A DNA stretch of 64,000 nt from contig NZ_WJWY01000005.1 of NCBI RefSeq assembly GCF_010367435.1, positions 1 through 64,000 on the forward strand. Direction: 5' to 3'. The translations under genes and the position numbers were made by a program. Below, piece by piece: positions 10,582 to 51,739 of this stretch. Positions within the stretch are counted from its first letter, which is position 1. Each line of letters begins with the position of its first letter. The notes below the pieces were generated by a model that worked only from the letters and a program-made list of their open reading frames with translations, searched no databases and had not been told where the DNA came from. The DNA is from Fusobacterium sp. IOR10 (lineage in GTDB: Bacteria; Fusobacteriota; Fusobacteriia; Fusobacteriales; Fusobacteriaceae).

Positions 10582-12930
10582 TTATTTTTTTGATTGTATA
10601 TATTCATCTATTGCAACTGCTGCTTTTTTACCAGCTCCCATTGCAAGAATAACTGTTGCTGCACCTGAAACTGCGTCTCCCCCTGCAAATATTCCAGCTC
10701 TTGAAGTTTGTCCATTATCATCAGCAATTATTCCATTCCATTTATTAATCTCTAAATTCTTAGTTGTAGAAGGGATTAATGTATTTGAAGAAGTTCCCAA
10801 AGCCATTATTACAGTATCCACATCCATTATAAATTCTGAATTTTCAACTTCAATAAATGAAGCTCTTCCTGAGGCATCCTTTTCCCCAAGTCTTGTTCTA
10901 ATACATCTCATTCCAATTACATTTCCATCTTTGTCCCCTAGAATTTCCTTTGGTAAAGTTAATTCATCAATTATAACTCCCTCTTCCTTTGCATGATGAA
11001 CTTCCTCTAATCTAGCTGGGAAATCCTGTTCACTTCTTCTATATACAATGTGAGCCTCTGCACCTAGTCTTTTACCAGTTCTAACAGAATCCATTGCAAC
11101 ATTTCCTCCACCAATAACTGCTACTTTTTTACCTATTCTTACTGGTGTTCTATATTCCTCCTTGTATGCTTTCATTAAGTTTACTCTAGTTAAAAATTCG
11201 TTTGCAGAAAAAACTCCATTTAAGTTTTCCCCAGGTATATTCATAAATCTAGGAAGTCCTGCTCCACTACCTATGAATACAGCTTGAAAACCTTCTTTAT
11301 CTAAAAGTTTTTCAATAATAGTTGTTCTTCCTATTATTTCATTTGTTGAAATTTTAACTCCTAGTTTTTTAATATTTTCTATTTCCCTTTGAACAACATC
11401 ATCCTTTGGCAATCTAAATTCAGGTATACCATATGTTAAAACTCCACCAGTTTTGTGTAAAGCTTCAAAAATTGTCACATCATAACCTATTTTAGCCAAA
11501 TCTCCAGCAACTGTTAACCCTGCAGGACCACTACCAACAACTGCAACTTTTTTATTATTTTTTTCTAAAACTTCTATGTCTATAGGGTTATTTAACATAT
11601 AATCCCCTACAAATTTTTCTAACTTACCTATTGCTACAGGTTCCCCTTTTATTCCTAGTATACATTTTCCTTCACATTGAACTTCCTGTGGACAAACTCT
11701 ACCACAAACTGCAGGAAGAGAAGTATATTTCATTAGAATTTTTCCAGCCTCTTTAATATTTCCCTTTTTAACCTCTTGGATAAATCCAGGAATATCTATT
11801 GAAACAGGACATCCTAAAACACATAGGGGATTTTTACAATTTAGACATCTAGAAGCTTCTTCCATTGCCTCTTGTAAATTATACCCATAGGTAACTTCTT
11901 TAAAATTAGTTGCTCTTACTTTTGGATCTTGCTCCCTTGCAGGAACTCTTCCCTTTGGTTTTTTAATGTTTTCAACTTGTATTTCTTCATGATCTTCATG
12001 ATCATGTCCCATTGGGCAATCATCTGCTGAGTGAGTAGCTCCATCTTCTTTAACTAAAGAATCTCTTCCCTCTTGAGTTTTATACATTAATTGTCTTCTC
12101 ATTGCCTCATCAAAGTCAACCTTGTGTCCATCAAATTCTGGCCCATCAACACAGGCAAATTTTATTTCATTTCCTATCCTAACTCTACAAGCTCCACACA
12201 TTCCTGTTCCATCAACCATTAATGTATTTAAACTTACAACAGTTGGAATGTTGTATTCCTTTGTTTTTATACATACAAATTTCATCATTATCATAGGACC
12301 TATTGCAACAACATAGTCATAGTGTTTTCCTTTGTTTTTAATAAGGTCATCTAATACATTTGTTACTAGTCCCTTATATCCATAAGTTCCATCATCAGTT
12401 GCAATGTAAACATTTTCTGCAACTTTTTTCATTCTATCTTCCAATATAACTACATCTTTAGTTTTAGCTCCTATTATAACATCTGCCTTTAATCCATTTT
12501 CATTGAACCATTTTACTTGAGGATAAATTGGAGCAGTTCCAACTCCACCAGCTATAAATAAAACTTTTTTGTCCTTTAGTTCTTCAATATTTTCATGTAA
12601 GAACTCGCTTTCTCTTCCAAGGGGTCCCACAACATCTTGGAAATAATTTCCCTCTTCTAATTTTGCCATTTCCTCTGTACTTTTCCCCACTACAAAGAAA
12701 ACTATAGTAACTGTTCCTTTAATTTTATCATAATCACAAATAGTTAAAGGTATTCTCTCTCCAAACTCGTTTATTTTAACAATTAGAAATTGTCCTGGTT
12801 TAGCAGAAGAGGATAGTTTTTTAGCCTCTATTTCCATAAGACATATCTTTTCACTTAACCATTCTTTTTTTAGTATTTTAAACATTTTTCCTCCTCTATA
12901 TAAACTTCTTGTATTTAATTTTATTAACAT
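10582..12930 (-). CDS. Fused NfnA-like (FAD/NAD(P)-binding oxidoreductase) and NfnB/GltD-like (glutamate synthase small-subunit-like, FAD, [4Fe-4S]) protein
   Basis: 782 aa. The N-terminal approx. 280 aa is ferredoxin-NADP reductase-like with a 2Fe-2S Cys cluster (CGACRV...C). The C-terminal approx. 470 aa has CxxC...CP ferredoxin-like cysteines and two Rossmann motifs, VAVVGSGPAGL and VAVIGGGNVAMD, diagnostic of GltD/SudA/NfnB. Confidence 0.7.
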   Translation of the reverse strand: MLIKLNTRSLYRGGKMFKILKKEWLSEKICLMEIEAKKLSSSAKPGQFLIVKINEFGERIPLTICDYDKIKGTVTIVFFVVGKSTEEMAKLEEGNYFQDVVGPLGRESEFLHENIEELKDKKVLFIAGGVGTAPIYPQVKWFNENGLKADVIIGAKTKDVVILEDRMKKVAENVYIATDDGTYGYKGLVTNVLDDLIKNKGKHYDYVVAIGPMIMMKFVCIKTKEYNIPTVVSLNTLMVDGTGMCGACRVRIGNEIKFACVDGPEFDGHKVDFDEAMRRQLMYKTQEGRDSLVKEDGATHSADDCPMGHDHEDHEEIQVENIKKPKGRVPAREQDPKVRATNFKEVTYGYNLQEAMEEASRCLNCKNPLCVLGCPVSIDIPGFIQEVKKGNIKEAGKILMKYTSLPAVCGRVCPQEVQCEGKCILGIKGEPVAIGKLEKFVGDYMLNNPIDIEVLEKNNKKVAVVGSGPAGLTVAGDLAKIGYDVTIFEALHKTGGVLTYGIPEFRLPKDDVVQREIENIKKLGVKISTNEIIGRTTIIEKLLDKEGFQAVFIGSGAGLPRFMNIPGENLNGVFSANEFLTRVNLMKAYKEEYRTPVRIGKKVAVIGGGNVAMDSVRTGKRLGAEAHIVYRRSEQDFPARLEEVHHAKEEGVIIDELTLPKEILGDKDGNVIGMRCIRTRLGEKDASGRASFIEVENSEFIMDVDTVIMALGTSSNTLIPSTTKNLEINKWNGIIADDNGQTSRAGIFAGGDAVSGAATVILAMGAGKKAAVAIDEYIQSKK

Positions 12931-12977
12931 TTTTTTATATTTTTATGATTATATCATAATTTGCTTAGATAACAAAA

Positions 12978-13139
12978 TTAATTTAACCACCAACCTAAGT
13001 CTTTTCCTATCCCCATAGCTAGAAATAATAAAATTAATCCCCCTAGTATTCTTTTTTTCCTATCATTACTTAAAAATCCAAGAACAGCAAAGACCAAACC
13101 AGCTGCTATTACCACCATTGAAGCTACTTTCATTTTCAT
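12978..13139 (-). CDS. Small (53 aa) two-TM membrane protein, not in the ORF track (below the length cutoff)
   Basis: MKMKVASMVVIAAGLVFAVLGFLSNDRKKRILGGLILLFLAMGIGKDLGWWLN. An AGGAGA RBS lies 8 nt upstream of ATG, and the hairpin hydrophobic profile is clean. Confidence 0.45.
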   Translation of the reverse strand: MKMKVASMVVIAAGLVFAVLGFLSNDRKKRILGGLILLFLAMGIGKDLGWWLN

Positions 13140-13180
13140 ATTTATATTCTCCTAAATTTTATCTATTTTATATTGAAAAC

Positions 13181-13831
13181 CTACCATTTTTCCACTGAAT
13201 AACTATAAATTATAAATTTGGAAAAAATATCAATAAATTTTTTCATATCTTCTATATCTTTTTTATCTAAAAAATTATCACTAAATTCAACATATTCACT
13301 CCAATTAAAGGACATGGCTAAATCTACAATTTTTGAATCTGGTATTTTTTTTAAAATATCCTTAAAGGAGAGTCTTAAAATTTCTATTTTATTTTCCTTT
13401 CTAAAATTTATTAAATAATCTCTTGTTAGAATTTCAATTGATTTTTTAAAACCTATACTAGCTATTTCATAAAGATTATATGTTTCTGATATTAAAGCTT
13501 GTCCGTAAACTTCTACAAATCTTTCTGAAATTTTTTTTAATTCCTTTGTATAATCTTTATAGTTTATTTTGTTTGTAATTTTATACTCTATTGGTTGGGG
13601 AATTTTGGTACCAAAGGGTAGTTTATAAGCCATTATAAAATATTTGCTGCATCTGGGGCATTGAGCTATTATGACAAATGTCCTTGTTTCCATATCTGTT
13701 TCGCTTATTGTAAGTACATAAGGTGCAATTCCATTATGGCAATGGGGACACTCATTAATTTTAGGAACATTATAAAATTTTTCTATTCCATTTACTTTTA
13801 CTGATAACCTCTCAAAAATATATTCTGACAT
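13181..13831 (-). CDS. Hypothetical protein with N-terminal Cys4 zinc-ribbon (CPHC...CPRC) and helical C-terminal domain
   Basis: 216 aa; two CxxC pairs about 30 residues apart, then a K/E-rich helical region. Borders the non-coding repeat/CRISPR-like island. Confidence 0.55.
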   Translation of the reverse strand: MSEYIFERLSVKVNGIEKFYNVPKINECPHCHNGIAPYVLTISETDMETRTFVIIAQCPRCSKYFIMAYKLPFGTKIPQPIEYKITNKINYKDYTKELKKISERFVEVYGQALISETYNLYEIASIGFKKSIEILTRDYLINFRKENKIEILRLSFKDILKKIPDSKIVDLAMSFNWSEYVEFSDNFLDKKDIEDMKKFIDIFSKFIIYSYSVEKW

Positions 13832-14181
13832 TTCTAAACTCCTTTAAATAAATTATCTTCCTCCAACTATTTTTTCTTATTGATTGCTATTAACAATTGT
13901 TACACAAATACTTTCATTTTCAAAGATTTGTATCTTAAAATTTACCTTTATTTTAAGCATTTAGATTATATCACAAAATTACAATTTTTTTTTATTTAAT
14001 TATTTATAACATCCTTTATTTTCATGTCATTAAAGATTATTCTTTGCTTTTTTAACTTAAGTTATTATTTCATTTCAATTGACAATCTTTTGTTTTATTT
14101 ATATTAATTCATAATTTTATTTTAATTTACCATTATAAAACATTTAAATTAAAAGGCATAAGATTTTAATTTTATTAAAAC

Positions 14182-14429
14182 AAAAAAAGAAAACCTTTAA
14201 TTTTTCAAGGCTTTCTTTTTTTATTGATTAAAGTTTAGGGTAGGAAACTCTTTAGTTTGACTAGAACAGAAGAGTTAACAAAATTTGATTTATTTTGTAC
14301 AAAGAAATAGTATCATAAAAAGATTTGAAAGTCAAACTATTTGTTTGTATTAATTAAATAATTCCATTATCTATGGAATAGTTCATACTTATTCTAGTAT
14401 TCTCTCTAGAATTTATTAATTTAAAGAAT
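14182..14429. repeat. Non-coding tandem module A (248-bp unit): terminator hairpin plus conserved 36-nt box
   Basis: Hairpin aagaaaacc...ggctttctt + T7 at 14187-14222. The box atagtatcataaaaagatTTTGAAAGTCAAACTATTT at 14307-14342 matches module B at 31/36 positions, and the spacing is identical (terminator to terminator 248 bp, box to box 248 bp). Confidence 0.5.
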
Positions 14430-14620
14430 AAAAAAAGAAAACCATTTTATTCAAAGGTTTTCTTTTTTTTATAAATCAATGTTAAGAAAGGAGATCCTAA
14501 AGTTTATTAAAAATTAGGACTTTTATAATTGAAACTATCCATCACCACAAGATAATAGTATCACAGAATAATTTGAAAGTCAAACTATTTATTCCGCCAT
14601 AACATTAATTGTGTATCTAA
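14430..14620. repeat. Non-coding tandem module B (second copy), immediately adjoining the CRISPR-like array
   Basis: Hairpin aagaaaacc-attttattcaaa-ggttttctt + T8 at 14435-14470. Box atagtatcacagaataatTTTGAAAGTCAAACTATTT at 14555-14590. Confidence 0.5.
14435..14470. terminator. Bidirectional intrinsic terminator (module B), positioned to stop a minus-strand array transcript
   Basis: Perfect 9-bp GC-clamped stem flanked by an A-run (5') and a T-run (3'). Module A carries the equivalent hairpin at 14187-14222. Confidence 0.5.
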
Positions 14621-14785
14621 ATTTATATTCCACATTGGTTAGATTAAAAGTAAAATCTATGAAATTTATAAGATAATAGAAGAAGTATTTACATTCCACA
14701 CTGGTTAGATTAAAAGAATTTTTAGCTGGTTCTGTAACAACTGGTTCTGTAACAAATTTACATTCCACACTGGTTAGATTAAAAG
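14621..14785 (-). CRISPR. CRISPR-like mini-array: 3 repeats (30 nt), 2 spacers (36 and 39 nt); type I-B-like repeat; no cas genes in the window
   Basis: Repeats at 14621-14650 (atttaTattccacaTtggttagattaaaag, 2 mismatches), 14687-14716 and 14756-14785 (atttacattccacactggttagattaaaag, identical). The reverse complement CTTTTAATCTAACCAGTGTGGAATGTAAAT ends in ...TGTGG-ATGTAAAT like clostridial type I-B repeats. The degenerate repeat is distal to the putative leader at 14786-14928. Confidence 0.55.
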
Positions 14786-14832
14786 AGGTATACTTATAAC
14801 CTCATTAAAATTATAGCATAATAATCCTATTT

Positions 14833-14894
14833 CTGTCGACCCCTTAAATTTTTCTATTTTTCCATATAATTTTTACACTGTTAGAGGTCGACAG
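14833..14894. promoter_or_regulatory. GC-rich 9-bp inverted repeat (ctgtcgacc ... ggtcgacag) with a 44-nt AT-rich spacer, in the putative array leader / tldD 3' region
   Basis: A perfect 9-bp dyad in an otherwise AT-rich intergenic stretch. There is no U-tract, so it is not a canonical terminator. Confidence 0.35.
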
Positions 14895-14928
14895 CTTTAT
14901 ATTATTTAATTATTTTCTTGTGTATTCT

Positions 14929-16314
14929 CTACTTTTCTCTTCCACCAACTAAGACGTTCCTAATTTTTATAGAGGGTTGCCCCACATTAGTTGGGACACT
15001 TCCAGAAACTGAACCACACATTCCTTGTCCATATCCTAAATTGTTTCCAACCATGTCAATTTCCTTTAAAACTTCTCCACCATTACCTATTAAAGTTGCT
15101 CCTCTAACAGGTTTTGTTATTTTCCCATCTTCTATTAAATAACCTTCCATAACTGCAAAATTAAAATCTCCTGTGGCAGGATTAACTGATCCCCCTCCCA
15201 TATATTTTGCATACAGTCCTTTTTTTGTACTTTTTATCATTTCTTCAAGTGTTGATTCCCCATTTAAAATAAATGTATTTGTCATTCTTGAAGTGGGAGC
15301 ATATTTATAAGATTCCCTTCTTCCACTTCCTGTGGATTCCATTCCCATTCTTCTTCCATTTAGTTTGTCAATCATGTATCCCTTTAAAATTCCCTTTTCA
15401 ATTAGAATGTTTCTTCTAGTTTTAGTACCTTCATCATCAACTGTTAAACTTCCCCATTCATTTTTTAAAGTTCCATCATCAACAAAAGTTACAAGGGAAC
15501 TTGCTATTTTTTCTCCTATTTTCCCAGCAAATATAGAGTTTCCCTTGGCCACACTTGTAGCTTCTAGTCCATGACCACATGCTTCGTGAAAGATAACTCC
15601 TCCAAATTTGTGATCAATTATTACTGGCATTTTTCCACTTGGACAATAATCTGCATAAAGCATTGTTTTAGCTATTCTTGAAGCTTCTCTAGCATAACTT
15701 TCAACATCTAAATCCCTTAGAAATTCAAATCCCATTGAAGCACCTGGACTCATTCTTCCAGTTTGCATTTCTCCATTTTCTTCAGCTATACTTTCAATAC
15801 TTATTCTACTTCTAATTCTTTCATCTTCAGTGTATAACCCTTCACTATTTGCAATTATTACCTCTTGTTTCACATCTGAATATGAAACTCTCACTTCATT
15901 TATAATAGAATCATAATTTTTAGCTGCATTGTAAGCCTTTCTCATTATATGAACCTTTTCACTTTTCTTTACATCCTCAGGATATATTTCAATTTCATTT
16001 ATATTTTGAAACTTCACTTCATTTAAATCAATGTTTACATCTTCCTTTATTCCTTCTATGGATTTAGATAATTTTTTTGCTGAATTTATTAAACTGTCCT
16101 CTTCCATATTATTAGTATATCCATAAACAGAATAAACTCCTTTAAATATCCTAATTCCCATACCAAAATCTTTTCCAGAATTTGATGTTTCTAGTTTTCC
16201 TTCAGTCATAAAAAGACTACTAACTCTCTTTTTTTCTATGAAGATTTCTGCAAAATCTCCCCCTGTGGATAGAGCTTCCATTAAAATTTTATTTAATAAT
16301 TTTTTATTTATCAT
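14929..16314 (-). CDS. tldD: TldD/PmbA family metallopeptidase
   Basis: 461 aa; the HEACGHGLE zinc motif and Gly-rich C-terminal beta region typical of TldD/PmbA. Only one member of the usual pair is present here. Confidence 0.8.
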   Translation of the reverse strand: MINKKLLNKILMEALSTGGDFAEIFIEKKRVSSLFMTEGKLETSNSGKDFGMGIRIFKGVYSVYGYTNNMEEDSLINSAKKLSKSIEGIKEDVNIDLNEVKFQNINEIEIYPEDVKKSEKVHIMRKAYNAAKNYDSIINEVRVSYSDVKQEVIIANSEGLYTEDERIRSRISIESIAEENGEMQTGRMSPGASMGFEFLRDLDVESYAREASRIAKTMLYADYCPSGKMPVIIDHKFGGVIFHEACGHGLEATSVAKGNSIFAGKIGEKIASSLVTFVDDGTLKNEWGSLTVDDEGTKTRRNILIEKGILKGYMIDKLNGRRMGMESTGSGRRESYKYAPTSRMTNTFILNGESTLEEMIKSTKKGLYAKYMGGGSVNPATGDFNFAVMEGYLIEDGKITKPVRGATLIGNGGEVLKEIDMVGNNLGYGQGMCGSVSGSVPTNVGQPSIKIRNVLVGGREK

Positions 16315-51298: not shown

Positions 51299-51604
51299 TT
51301 AATATCCAGCTTTATAAACTTTTCCATCTTTCATCATTACTTCAGACATTGTTCCATTGTCATCCATCATCATTTTTCCATCTTTCATCATTACCTTATG
51401 CATCATTCCATCTTTGTCTTTAACCATCATCATTTTCCCATCTTGCATCATCATTTTGCTGTCTTTAACCATCATCATTTGACCACTTTGATCCTTCATC
51501 ATCATTGTTCCTAATTCTTCTTTATCATTATTATACATATTAGAACAACCAACTAAAAGAAAAGCTACAAATATTCCCAAACCTAACATTTTACTTTTTT
51601 TCAT
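51299..51604 (-). CDS. Met-rich MXKDX-repeat lipoprotein (putative Cu(I)/Ag(I)-binding periplasmic protein)
   Basis: The true start is likely 51604 (GGAGGG RBS; MKKSKMLGLGIFVAFLLVGCSN with a lipobox). The mature protein is about 80 aa with 8 tandem MM(M)xKDx repeats. The 33-aa N-terminal extension in the ORF track is probably not translated. Confidence 0.65.
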   Translation of the reverse strand: MKKSKMLGLGIFVAFLLVGCSNMYNNDKEELGTMMMKDQSGQMMMVKDSKMMMQDGKMMMVKDKDGMMHKVMMKDGKMMMDDNGTMSEVMMKDGKVYKAGY

Positions 51605-51739
51605 ATTTTCCCTCCTATTAAATAAATAATAAAAAATAATTAAACGGAGTGCAATGTTAATGCTCTTCAGTTTGAGTATATAACCAGTATATGATTTTGT
51701 CAAATGAATTATGGTTATTTGTACTTGTTTCTTTCAATT

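What the first reader, a model, noticed from the sequence alone, without database searches (positions are those of the whole stretch)
13832..14928. Gene-free 1.1-kb AT-rich island holding an orphan CRISPR-like mini-array with a type I-B-like repeat
There are three 30-nt direct repeats, two of them identical and the leader-distal one carrying 2 mismatches, separated by 36- and 39-nt unique spacers. In the minus orientation the repeat reads CTTTTAATCTAACCAGTGTGGAATGTAAAT, whose 3' end (...TGTGGAATGTAAAT) matches the 8-nt handle region of clostridial type I-B repeats. The periodicity, a spacer length equal to or slightly above repeat length, and the degenerate terminal repeat are the architecture of a real CRISPR array rather than iterons. 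No cas gene exists anywhere in the 64 kb. So the array is either trans-serviced by a distant cas locus, is a relic, or has been co-opted (for example regulatory crRNA, or a fragment left by a mobile element). The island also sits between a zinc-ribbon hypothetical protein and tldD, away from any operon logic.
Basis: partly seen in the sequence, partly recalled or inferred. Interest (0 to 1): 0.7.

Follow-up and report, generated by a model that had tools for sequence, protein, structure and literature searches.

The report
Small cas-remote CRISPR array, real
This is a genuine but tiny CRISPR array (two spacers) with no cas genes nearby in a Fusobacterium genome; related strains gain and lose spacers at the same site, so it is ordinary immunity DNA, and the one notable point is that sister species carry an RNA-targeting Cas13c system with a related leader at this spot.

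Summary
Three 30-nt repeats lie at 14621-14785, the trailer-end copy with 2 mismatches, separated by 36- and 39-nt spacers; 0 such matches are expected by chance. The 1.1-kb interval is 19-23% GC and has no credible ORF. No Cas family is found in the 64 kb.

It is a real CRISPR array. The source is Fusobacterium sp. IOR10. Relatives with 97-99% identical TldD carry the same leader and repeat just after tldD, with 1, 2, 3, 7 or at least 12 different spacers. Old spacers are shared at the trailer end and new ones sit at the leader end. A sibling spacer matches a phage terminase gene 37/37, with a 5' CCT flank.

The repeat is unstructured, and its last 12 nt equal published clostridial type I-B repeats. 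New context: in sister species the same site holds cas13c (type VI-C), a hairpin-repeat array and, in one of them, a second array of this repeat family. All the leaders are homologous. In IOR10 only the I-B-like array remains, with a shortened leader fused to the tldD 3' end.

Whether IOR10 has cas genes elsewhere could not be tested. The "gene-free" stretch also holds two promoter-to-terminator units that look like small-RNA genes. This is a new member of a known kind, of modest interest.

The parts
14756..14785 (-). Leader-proximal CRISPR repeat, CTTTTAATCTAACCAGTGTGGAATGTAAAT
   Evidence: Exact consensus copy. It is identical to the repeat in L001, L002, L004-L006, L010-L012, L014, L024 and L025.
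14717..14755 (-). Spacer 1, the newer one (39 nt): TTGTTACAGAACCAGTTGTTACAGAACCAGCTAAAAATT. It contains a 15-nt tandem duplication.
   Evidence: It is unique to this strain. It has no match in GenBank phages, PLSDB plasmids or IMG/VR, and no match beyond 14 nt in the window.
14687..14716 (-). Middle CRISPR repeat (exact consensus copy)
14651..14686 (-). Spacer 2, the older one (36 nt): ACTTCTTCTATTATCTTATAAATTTCATAGATTTTA
   Evidence: No match in phages, plasmids or IMG/VR, and none in the window beyond 18 nt with 2 mismatches, which is chance level.
14621..14650 (-). Terminal degenerate repeat, CTTTTAATCTAACCAATGTGGAATATAAAT (2 mismatches)
   Evidence: It is identical to the terminal repeat of L012 and L014. 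Its CCAATGTGG variant equals the consensus repeat of the JB019 second array.
14786..14928 (-). Leader, running from the tldD stop codon to the first repeat. It is homologous to the leaders of relatives but lacks 83 nt that they all have.
   Evidence: Alignment A3; leader sequences.
14810..14839 (-). Predicted array promoter TCGACA-18-TGcTATAAT (11 of 12 consensus positions, extended -10)
   Evidence: It is conserved in all the I-B-like-array leaders (window, L006, L012, JB019 leader 2); the two VI-C leaders keep only the TCGACA box. The -35 box lies inside one arm of the inverted repeat.
14833..14894 (.). Leader inverted repeat CTGTCGACC(C/T)C, with arms at 14833-14843 and 14884-14894. These are the only two copies in the window.
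   Evidence: 2 found, 0.09 expected. The same motif is present in the leaders of the VI-C arrays of L016 and L017 and next to the array of L022.
14427..14593 (-). Unit A, a candidate small-RNA gene. It has promoter TTGACT-17-TGaTACTAT (14583..14555), a non-coding body of about 115 nt, and an A-run/hairpin/U-run terminator (14430-14472). That terminator is the first one downstream of the array.
   Evidence: The unit is conserved directly after the terminal repeat in L012 and L014. No ORF and no Rfam hit.
14179..14345 (-). Unit B, a paralogue of unit A. It has promoter 14335..14307, a diverged body of about 115 nt, and a terminator at 14182-14225.
   Evidence: Fold energy -28.2 kcal/mol, z = -6.0. 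The promoter and body are seen only in the window. The terminator alone is present in L002, L006, L010 and L012.
13832..14178 (-). Upstream region of the zinc-ribbon gene (AT-rich, non-coding)
   Evidence: It aligns at 85% with L002 and has no credible ORF.
13181..13831 (-). 216-aa zinc-ribbon protein gene on the trailer-side flank. It belongs to a phage-associated family.
   Evidence: phrog_1305, E 8e-23. A 62% identical orthologue sits in the same position in JB019. The oldest spacer of L005 is about 28/36 identical to 13709-13744.
14929..16314 (-). tldD on the leader-side flank, same strand as the array. There is no terminator between it and the array.
   Evidence: Pfam; 100% identical to TldD of Fusobacterium sp. 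IOR10; terminator scan.

Best explanation
The feature is a bona fide CRISPR array with two spacers. It is transcribed on the minus strand from its own leader promoter, and probably also by read-through from tldD. Transcription ends at the first terminator downstream, at 14430-14472. The repeat belongs to the unstructured clostridial/fusobacterial type I-B kind. By inference, a Cas6 made elsewhere in the genome would cut the pre-crRNA inside each repeat, leaving the 8-nt 5' tag AUGUAAAU. The crRNAs would then guide a type I-B Cascade/Cas3 against DNA that carries a 5' CCN-type PAM. New spacers are inserted at the leader-repeat junction (...TACCT|CTTTT) by a Cas1-Cas2(-Cas4) module acting in trans. 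The array lies in a variable defence hotspot just after tldD. In sister species this site also holds cas13c and a type VI-C array whose leader is a paralogue of this one. In the IOR10 lineage only the I-B-like array remains.

Shown here: array anatomy, the conserved leader, spacer turnover with polarity, a phage target for a sibling spacer, synteny with the Cas13c loci, and absence of cas genes from the window. Inferred: the processing enzyme, the effector, the PAM, and the presence of cas genes elsewhere in this strain.
For: Anatomy. Leader promoter.

The source is Fusobacterium sp. IOR10.

Same site, same leader and same repeat in 97-99% TldD relatives, with different spacer sets. L012 has 1 spacer. 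L014 has that spacer plus 6 newer ones at the leader end. L006 and L010 share their oldest spacer (1 nt different) and differ at the leader end. L005 has at least 12 spacers, and its trailer flank is 97.8% identical to window 12471-13337.

The identical repeat also forms an array of at least 9 repeats in a Cetobacterium genome bin.

L004 spacer 1 matches a phage terminase large-subunit gene 37/37, with a 5' CCT flank. The next spacer continues into the opposite strand of the same gene. Targeting of both strands suggests DNA targeting.

The last 12 nt, TGGAATGTAAAT, are identical to published type I-B repeats of C. difficile (PMC7064742), C. tetani (PMC6677821) and C. septicum (PMC8696124).

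The repeat is unstructured (-0.6 kcal/mol), like the C. difficile I-B repeat. Three Cas13c-adjacent repeats form 5-6 bp hairpins of -5.2 to -7.3 kcal/mol.

Type I-B is the predominant CRISPR type reported in Fusobacterium (bioRxiv 10.1101/2022.01.21.477265).
Against: No cas gene could be tied to this repeat. There is none in the window and none on the visible trailer sides of L001 and L005. The rest of the IOR10 genome could not be reached.

The window array is the second shortest seen, and its leader has lost 83 nt. This particular copy may therefore be inactive.

The two window spacers match nothing in the phage, plasmid or viral collections searched.

The PAM evidence rests on one true protospacer.

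The leader and the leader-repeat junction are shared with type VI-C arrays, so use by Cas13c is not formally excluded.
Confidence: 0.65

Rival explanations
1. Relic in this strain. The array is real by descent, but IOR10 no longer has compatible cas genes. The two spacers are then inert leftovers of a decaying locus that lost cas13c, the first array and part of the leader.
For: The array has only 2 spacers. The leader has an 83-nt internal deletion compared with every relative. The tldD terminator, cas13c and the VI-C array that occupy this site in sister species are absent. A Cas13c homology search returned no IOR10 protein. No cas gene is present in 64 kb.
Against: Two of the three repeats are still perfect. 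The promoter and the 60 or so leader bases next to the first repeat are intact. The window's two spacers are found in none of the close relatives that share its terminal repeat and unit A. The array has therefore turned over recently in this lineage.
Confidence: 0.2
2. A Cas13c (type VI-C) array. The crRNAs are used by an RNA-targeting Cas13c rather than by a type I-B complex, and the I-B resemblance of the repeat reflects shared adaptation machinery only.
For: In Fusobacterium sp. JB019 an array of this repeat family (27/30 identical) lies about 1.6 kb downstream of cas13c in the same site. Its leader is homologous to the VI-C leaders, and the repeats align in register at 20/30.
Against: JB019 and MFO224 have a separate hairpin-forming repeat directly next to cas13c, and MFO224 has only that one. 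All three Cas13c-adjacent repeat types fold into stable hairpins, while this repeat does not. There is no cas13c in the window and no IOR10 hit in the Cas13c search. Two of three traceable sibling spacers have the sense of the mRNA, so they could not pair with it.
Confidence: 0.08
3. The array is co-opted or not an immunity element. The repeats act as protein-binding iterons, or the array makes a regulatory crRNA (CreA/CreR-like) or an RliB-like small RNA that works without cas genes, perhaps together with the adjacent small-RNA-like units.
For: There are no cas genes nearby. Two small transcription units lie directly downstream on the same strand. JB019 arrays give weak sub-threshold Rfam hits to Listeria rliB (E 0.1, 23 bits against a 40-bit threshold).
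Against: The spacers differ completely between near-identical strains, which a conserved regulatory guide would not do. The window spacers have no seed-type match to the window, including the unit promoters. The best match there is a 10-nt internal stretch, which is chance level. Two repeats are perfect rather than degenerate as in Cre elements. Sibling spacers target phage genes.
Confidence: 0.04

Closest known systems
Cas-remote (orphan) arrays of type I-B systems in Clostridia, for example the many dispersed and prophage-borne arrays of Clostridioides difficile that are served by one or two cas operons
   Same: The repeat is about 30 nt, unstructured and ends in TGGAATGTAAAT. Spacers are 34-40 nt. 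There is an AT-rich leader with its own promoter and a degenerate terminal repeat. There are no adjacent cas genes. The one usable protospacer has a 5' CCT flank, which fits the CCW PAM I recall for C. difficile I-B (my own knowledge).
   Different: The host is a fusobacterium. The array is very short. No cas operon with this repeat has been seen, so membership rests on repeat resemblance. The leader carries a CTGTCGACC inverted-repeat motif that it shares with neighbouring type VI-C arrays.
Type VI-C (Cas13c) CRISPR loci of Fusobacteriaceae
   Same: The chromosomal site is the same (downstream of tldD) in sister species. The leader and the leader-repeat junction are homologous. Repeat length (30 nt) and spacer length are the same. 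Repeats are 20/30 identical in register. Like VI-C loci, there is no adaptation module next to the array.
   Different: There is no cas13c in the window. The repeat lacks the 5-6 bp hairpin and the GACTA...AAAC ends of the three Cas13c-adjacent repeat types examined.
RliB-CRISPR of Listeria monocytogenes, a small cas-less array at a fixed chromosomal position (Rfam RF01471; processing by PNPase is from my own knowledge of Sesto et al. 2014)
   Same: It is a short array at a conserved site without adjacent cas genes. The repeat likewise ends in ...ATGTAAAT (from memory, not checked here).
   Different: Rfam finds only sub-threshold similarity, and only in a relative's array. Here the spacer content differs between strains. 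Nothing is known about cas-independent processing.
Adaptation in trans for effector-only CRISPR loci, for example type VI-B arrays filled by a co-resident type II-C Cas1-Cas2 in Flavobacterium columnare (my own knowledge)
   Same: In JB019 two arrays with different repeats share a paralogous leader and junction. That is what use of a single integrase by two systems would predict.
   Different: This is not shown experimentally here. It concerns the sister species more than the window itself.

Membership tests
CRISPR array (generic) | At least three direct repeats of 23-47 nt separated by unique spacers of similar length | tested here: met
   3 x 30 nt with spacers of 36 and 39 nt; 0 expected by chance
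CRISPR array (generic) | An AT-rich leader with a promoter on one side and a degenerate terminal repeat on the other | tested here: met
   Promoter TCGACA-18-TGcTATAAT in a conserved leader. The trailer-end repeat has 2 mismatches that are shared with L012 and L014.
CRISPR array (generic) | Spacer content varies between related strains, with gain at the leader end | tested here: met
   L012 compared with L014, and L006 compared with L010. The window spacers are unique.
CRISPR array (generic) | Spacers derive from phages or plasmids | tested here: inconclusive
   A sibling spacer matches a phage terminase gene 37/37. The two window spacers match nothing in the phage, plasmid or IMG/VR collections.
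CRISPR array (generic) | cas genes in the same genome; transcription and processing into crRNAs | not testable with these tools
   There are none in the 64-kb window. Other IOR10 contigs could not be reached. No RNA data are available.
Type I-B repeat family | Repeat sequence resembles repeats with documented I-B cas operons | tested here: met
   The 3' 12 nt TGGAATGTAAAT are identical to the C. difficile, C. tetani and C. septicum I-B repeats quoted in PMC7064742, PMC6677821 and PMC8696124.
Type I-B repeat family | Little or no stable hairpin in the repeat | tested here: met
   -0.6 kcal/mol, the same as the C. difficile I-B repeat
Type I-B repeat family | Physical or genomic link to a cas6-cas8b-cas7-cas5-cas3-cas4-cas1-cas2 operon | not testable with these tools
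   The leader side of the L001 and L005 arrays lies outside the DNA held. An attempt to extend L001 failed.
Type I-B repeat family | A PAM 5' of the protospacer, with both DNA strands targeted | tested here: inconclusive
   One true protospacer has a 5' CCT flank. A diverged homologue of a second has CCC. Two spacers hit opposite strands of one gene. The sample is too small.
Type VI-C (Cas13c) array | An adjacent cas13c gene | tested here: not met
   No Cas13c hit among the window ORFs. It is present at the syntenic site in L016 and L017 (NCBIfam NF038193, 547 and 533 bits against a cut-off of 150).
Type VI-C (Cas13c) array | A repeat with a stable 5-6 bp stem-loop and GACTA...AAAC ends, as in Cas13c-adjacent arrays | tested here: not met
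   Three Cas13c-adjacent repeats fold at -5.2 to -7.3 kcal/mol, the window repeat at -0.6.
Type VI-C (Cas13c) array | Leader homologous to VI-C leaders | tested here: met
   Alignment A3 shows a shared CTGTCGACCTC...GATCGACAG...TCGACA...TACCT| layout. The motif is also next to the array of L022.
RliB-type cas-less CRISPR small RNA (Rfam RF01471) | A match to the Rfam model at its gathering score | tested here: not met
   No hit in the window. In L017 there are only 23 bits against a 40-bit threshold.
Cre-type regulatory mini-array (CreA/CreR) | Degenerate repeats flanking a spacer with a PAM-proximal seed match to a promoter in the same genome | tested here: not met
   Two repeats are perfect. 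The best spacer match to the neighbouring promoters is an internal 10-mer at chance level.

The most novel reading that the evidence does not exclude
The window array may be the type I-B half of a two-array defence hotspot. In this reading one adaptation machinery, presumably I-B Cas1-Cas2-Cas4, recognises a common leader and leader-repeat junction. It feeds spacers both to a DNA-targeting I-B array and to the neighbouring hairpin-repeat array of Cas13c, which has no cas1/cas2 of its own. The VI-C leader and repeat would then be a duplicated, diverged copy of the I-B ones. IOR10 shows the state after cas13c and its array were lost. This would offer a concrete, testable explanation of how type VI-C systems acquire spacers.
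Probability: 0.3. Interest if true: 0.6.

Novelty: new member of a known kind. Interest (0 to 1): 0.35.

Why it matters
For the window itself this is an annotation point. The interval between tldD and the zinc-ribbon gene should be annotated as a CRISPR array with its leader, followed by two candidate small-RNA genes. It should not be treated as an unexplained island.

The wider value lies in the comparison. The same chromosomal site holds a bare I-B-like array, a Cas13c locus, both arrays together, a P-loop NTPase gene or a recombinase element in closely related fusobacteria. The Cas13c array leader is a paralogue of the I-B-like leader. That gives a natural system in which to ask how adaptation-less type VI-C loci obtain spacers, and how arrays outlive the loss of their effector.

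Tried and rejected
1. Exact-protein look-ups of the window's TldD and zinc-ribbon protein found nothing on record. The IOR10 contigs themselves could therefore not be fetched.

2. I tried to reach the leader (cas) side of the L001 Cetobacterium array through its neighbouring ABC ATPase.

3. The repeat was searched against PLSDB plasmids to find an annotated cas operon. Only chance-level hits came back.

4. The repeat, and a looser 3' version of it, were scanned against IMG/VR with 0 hits.

5. 84 spacers from window-type and VI-C arrays were searched against GenBank phages, and the 51 window-type ones against PLSDB plasmids. Three spacers were also scanned against IMG/VR. The only hits were low-complexity ones.

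6. Self-targeting and a Cre-like seed match of the window spacers were checked. Nothing exceeded chance.

7. Rfam was run on the island and on the whole window. No family reached threshold, and CRISPR-DR models scored about 20 bits against 35-37.

8. Target prediction for the two small-RNA-like units against 64 translation-start regions of the window was no better than with shuffled seeds.

9. I first read L009 and L013 as alleles without an array. I rejected this because a serine-recombinase element is inserted right after tldD and the contigs end inside it.

10. Literature searches for Cetobacterium CRISPR typing, or for this repeat in print, found nothing.
Full report
**Observation**

The sequence shows three 30-nt direct repeats at 14621-14650, 14687-14716 and 14756-14785. 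The first has two mismatches and the other two are identical. A search with up to 3 mismatches finds only these three copies in the 64 kb, against 0.00 expected in 100 shuffles.

The spacers are 36 and 39 nt. That spacer carries an exact 15-nt tandem duplication.

The interval 13832-14928 is 19-23% GC, against 30-35% in the flanking genes. It has no credible ORF.

The flanks are tldD and a 216-aa CxxC...CxxC protein. That protein has no Pfam family but gives a full-length match to phage family phrog_1305.

I scanned 64 ORFs of the window against PADLOC and found no Cas family. The same library recognises Cas13c in related loci, so the negative result is meaningful.

**Is it a real CRISPR array?**

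The window's TldD is 100% identical to that of Fusobacterium sp. IOR10. Scans of public genomes and metagenomes for the repeat, together with look-ups of TldD proteins 97-99% identical to the window's, returned the same chromosomal site from many samples.

In all of these, tldD is followed by a homologous leader and then by the same 30-nt repeat. The spacer content differs:

- L012 has one spacer.
- L014 has that same spacer at the trailer end plus six more towards the leader.
- L006 has two spacers and L010/L002 has three. Their oldest spacers differ by one base and their leader-end spacers are unrelated.
- L005 has at least twelve spacers. Its trailer flank is 97.8% identical to window 12471-13337.

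The window's two spacers occur in none of them, even though it shares its exact terminal repeat with L012 and L014. Shared old spacers with unrelated new ones at the leader end are the signature of an array that acquires and loses spacers. Many of these contigs also break at the first repeat, as assemblies do at variable arrays.

A minus-strand promoter, TCGACA-18-TGcTATAAT, lies in the leader. It is conserved in the I-B-like-array leaders; the two VI-C leaders keep only the TCGACA box.

One metagenome contig, L004, joins two repeats to a truncated phage terminase large-subunit gene (Pfam Terminase_3 and Terminase_3C). Its complete spacer matches that gene 37/37 on the antisense strand with CCT immediately 5'. 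The next spacer runs straight into the sense strand of the same gene about 30 nt away. I read this as an assembly join through a spacer. It shows that arrays with this repeat target phage DNA on both strands.

The window's own spacers match nothing in GenBank phages, PLSDB plasmids, IMG/VR or the window itself.

**Which kind of repeat is it?**

The last 12 nt, TGGAATGTAAAT, are identical to repeats published with type I-B cas operons in three species:

- C. difficile, GTTTTAGATTAACTATATGGAATGTAAAT (PMC7064742)
- C. tetani, ...CCATATTGGAATGTAAAT (PMC6677821)
- C. septicum, GTTTTATCTTAACTAGTGGAATGTAAAT (PMC8696124)

Type I-B is the commonest type reported in Fusobacterium (bioRxiv 10.1101/2022.01.21.477265). 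The repeat is essentially unstructured at -0.6 kcal/mol, as is the C. difficile repeat. I could not tie the repeat to a cas operon, so membership is not proven.

**Unexpected context**

TldD proteins 85-86% identical to the window's come from Fusobacterium sp. MFO224 (L016) and JB019 (L017). In both, the gene order on either side matches the window. It runs from the NfeD and SPFH genes through tldD on one side, and on the other from the zinc-ribbon gene (62% identical) through the 53-aa membrane protein to the oxidoreductase.

Between tldD and the zinc-ribbon gene, however, these species have a 1008- or 1115-aa protein. It is Cas13c: NCBIfam NF038193 gives 547 and 533 bits against a cut-off of 150, four PADLOC Cas13c models match, and two RxxxxH motifs are present.

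Directly after cas13c comes a leader and an array with a different 30-nt repeat, AGACTAAACTCACTAATGTGAGATTTAAAC. JB019 then has a second leader and a 17-repeat array of AATTTAATCTAACCAATGTGGAATGTAAAT. That repeat is 27/30 identical to the window repeat and carries the same CCAATGTGG variant as the window's terminal repeat.

An alignment of six leaders shows that they are homologous. The six are the window, two conspecific relatives, JB019 leader 2, and the two VI-C leaders. They share these blocks:

- CAAAAACTGTCGACCTC
- GATCGACAG
- a TCGACA box that serves as the -35 element
- an invariant TACCT immediately before the first repeat

The two repeat types also align in register at 20 of 30 positions. 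The CTGTCGACC inverted-repeat motif occurs nowhere else in the window. It is also found next to the array of a distant Cas13c locus, L022.

The window leader lacks 83 nt that all relatives have. It begins about 17 nt after the tldD stop codon, and the terminator that follows tldD in L009, L016 and L026 is missing. The simplest history is a deletion that fused tldD to the second leader and removed cas13c and its array. An insertion in the other lineage is not excluded.

Other alleles of the same site hold a serine-recombinase element (L009 and L013) or a 726-aa P-loop membrane protein (L026). The site is therefore a variable defence hotspot.

**Is the window array a Cas13c array?**

Probably not, for four reasons.

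- Three different Cas13c-adjacent repeats (JB019/MFO224, L022, and Cetobacterium L019) all form stable 5-6 bp hairpins of -5.2 to -7.3 kcal/mol. The window repeat does not.
- MFO224 has only the hairpin array.
- A Cas13c homology search returned 30 proteins, none from IOR10, and the window has none.
- Two of the three traceable sibling spacers have mRNA sense, so they could not pair with a transcript.

The shared leader is better explained by both arrays being filled by one adaptation module. That fits the known lack of cas1/cas2 in VI-C loci. This is an inference and it forms my "novel case".

**The rest of the island**

Between the array and the zinc-ribbon gene lie two 248-nt-spaced units on the minus strand. 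Each has three parts:

- a near-consensus promoter, TTGACT-17-TGaTACTAT
- a non-coding body of about 115 nt with a C/U-rich unpaired stretch
- an A-run/hairpin/U-run terminator

Between the two units the promoters are almost identical, the terminators are similar, and the bodies are diverged. Unit A follows the terminal repeat directly in L012 and L014. Its two body substitutions there keep a predicted 7-bp stem (C-G becomes U-G). The promoter and body of unit B are seen only in the window. L002, L006 and L010 have just the terminator.

There is no Rfam match, no ORF and no stand-out target among the window's genes. I regard the units as candidate small-RNA genes of unknown role. Unit A's terminator is also the first terminator available to the array transcript.

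**Verdict**

The main interpretation, a real cas-remote CRISPR array with a I-B-like repeat, is supported. The population data favour an array serviced in trans over a co-opted element.

Whether this strain still has the cas genes is the one decisive open point, and the tools here could not settle it. The feature is a new member of a known kind. The interesting by-product is the paralogy between this array's leader and the leader of neighbouring Cas13c arrays in sister species.

Noticed in passing
window 14179-14345 and 14427-14593 (minus strand): Two tandem promoter-to-terminator units, each with a non-coding body of about 115 nt, lie directly downstream of the array. The promoters are near-identical and the bodies diverged. 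Unit A is also present in L012 and L014, and both are absent from L002, L006 and L010. They are candidate small-RNA genes with no Rfam match.
   Followed up: partly
L016 11490-14516 and L017 11491-14838: The Cas13c proteins of two sister species sit at the same site and share an identical repeat and a near-identical leader. They are nevertheless only 32% identical overall, with a well-conserved first 35 residues or so. This suggests allele replacement or very fast evolution.
   Followed up: partly
L016 14630-14719; L017 14973-15035: Short hydrophobic ORFs (29 and 20 aa) with strong ribosome-binding sites lie between cas13c and the leader of its array in both species. They could be a small membrane accessory peptide.
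   Followed up: no
L004 1-1315: This metagenome contig fuses two repeats of this family to a truncated phage terminase gene. Two neighbouring spacers target opposite strands of that gene within about 100 nt. That pattern is reminiscent of primed adaptation in type I systems.
   Followed up: partly
window 13709-13744 (inside the 216-aa gene) compared with the oldest spacer of L005: The oldest spacer of the L005 array is about 28/36 identical to the window's zinc-ribbon gene, with CCC at the PAM position. The gene belongs to phage family phrog_1305, so the spacer probably came from a phage homologue. In L005 most of this gene is missing.
   Followed up: partly
L009 2611-3567, L013, L026 3193-5373: Other alleles of the tldD 3' flank in the same species carry a serine-recombinase element or a 726-aa P-loop (GNGKTKL) membrane protein instead of the array. 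The site behaves as a defence or integration hotspot.
   Followed up: partly
L017 17905-17994: Two degenerate repeats separated by a 30-nt spacer lie about 350 nt beyond the end of the second array in JB019. They are either a decayed array fragment or a Cre-like mini-array.
   Followed up: no
window 14786-14928: No terminator separates tldD from the array. The terminator present after tldD in L009, L016 and L026 is absent here. The array is therefore probably also transcribed by read-through from tldD.
   Followed up: partly
window 51320-51502: Imperfect tandem repeats with periods of 24, 30 and 54 nt lie inside the ORF 51299-51703 (minus strand). They would encode a repetitive, probably His/Asp/Met-rich, short protein.
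   Followed up: no
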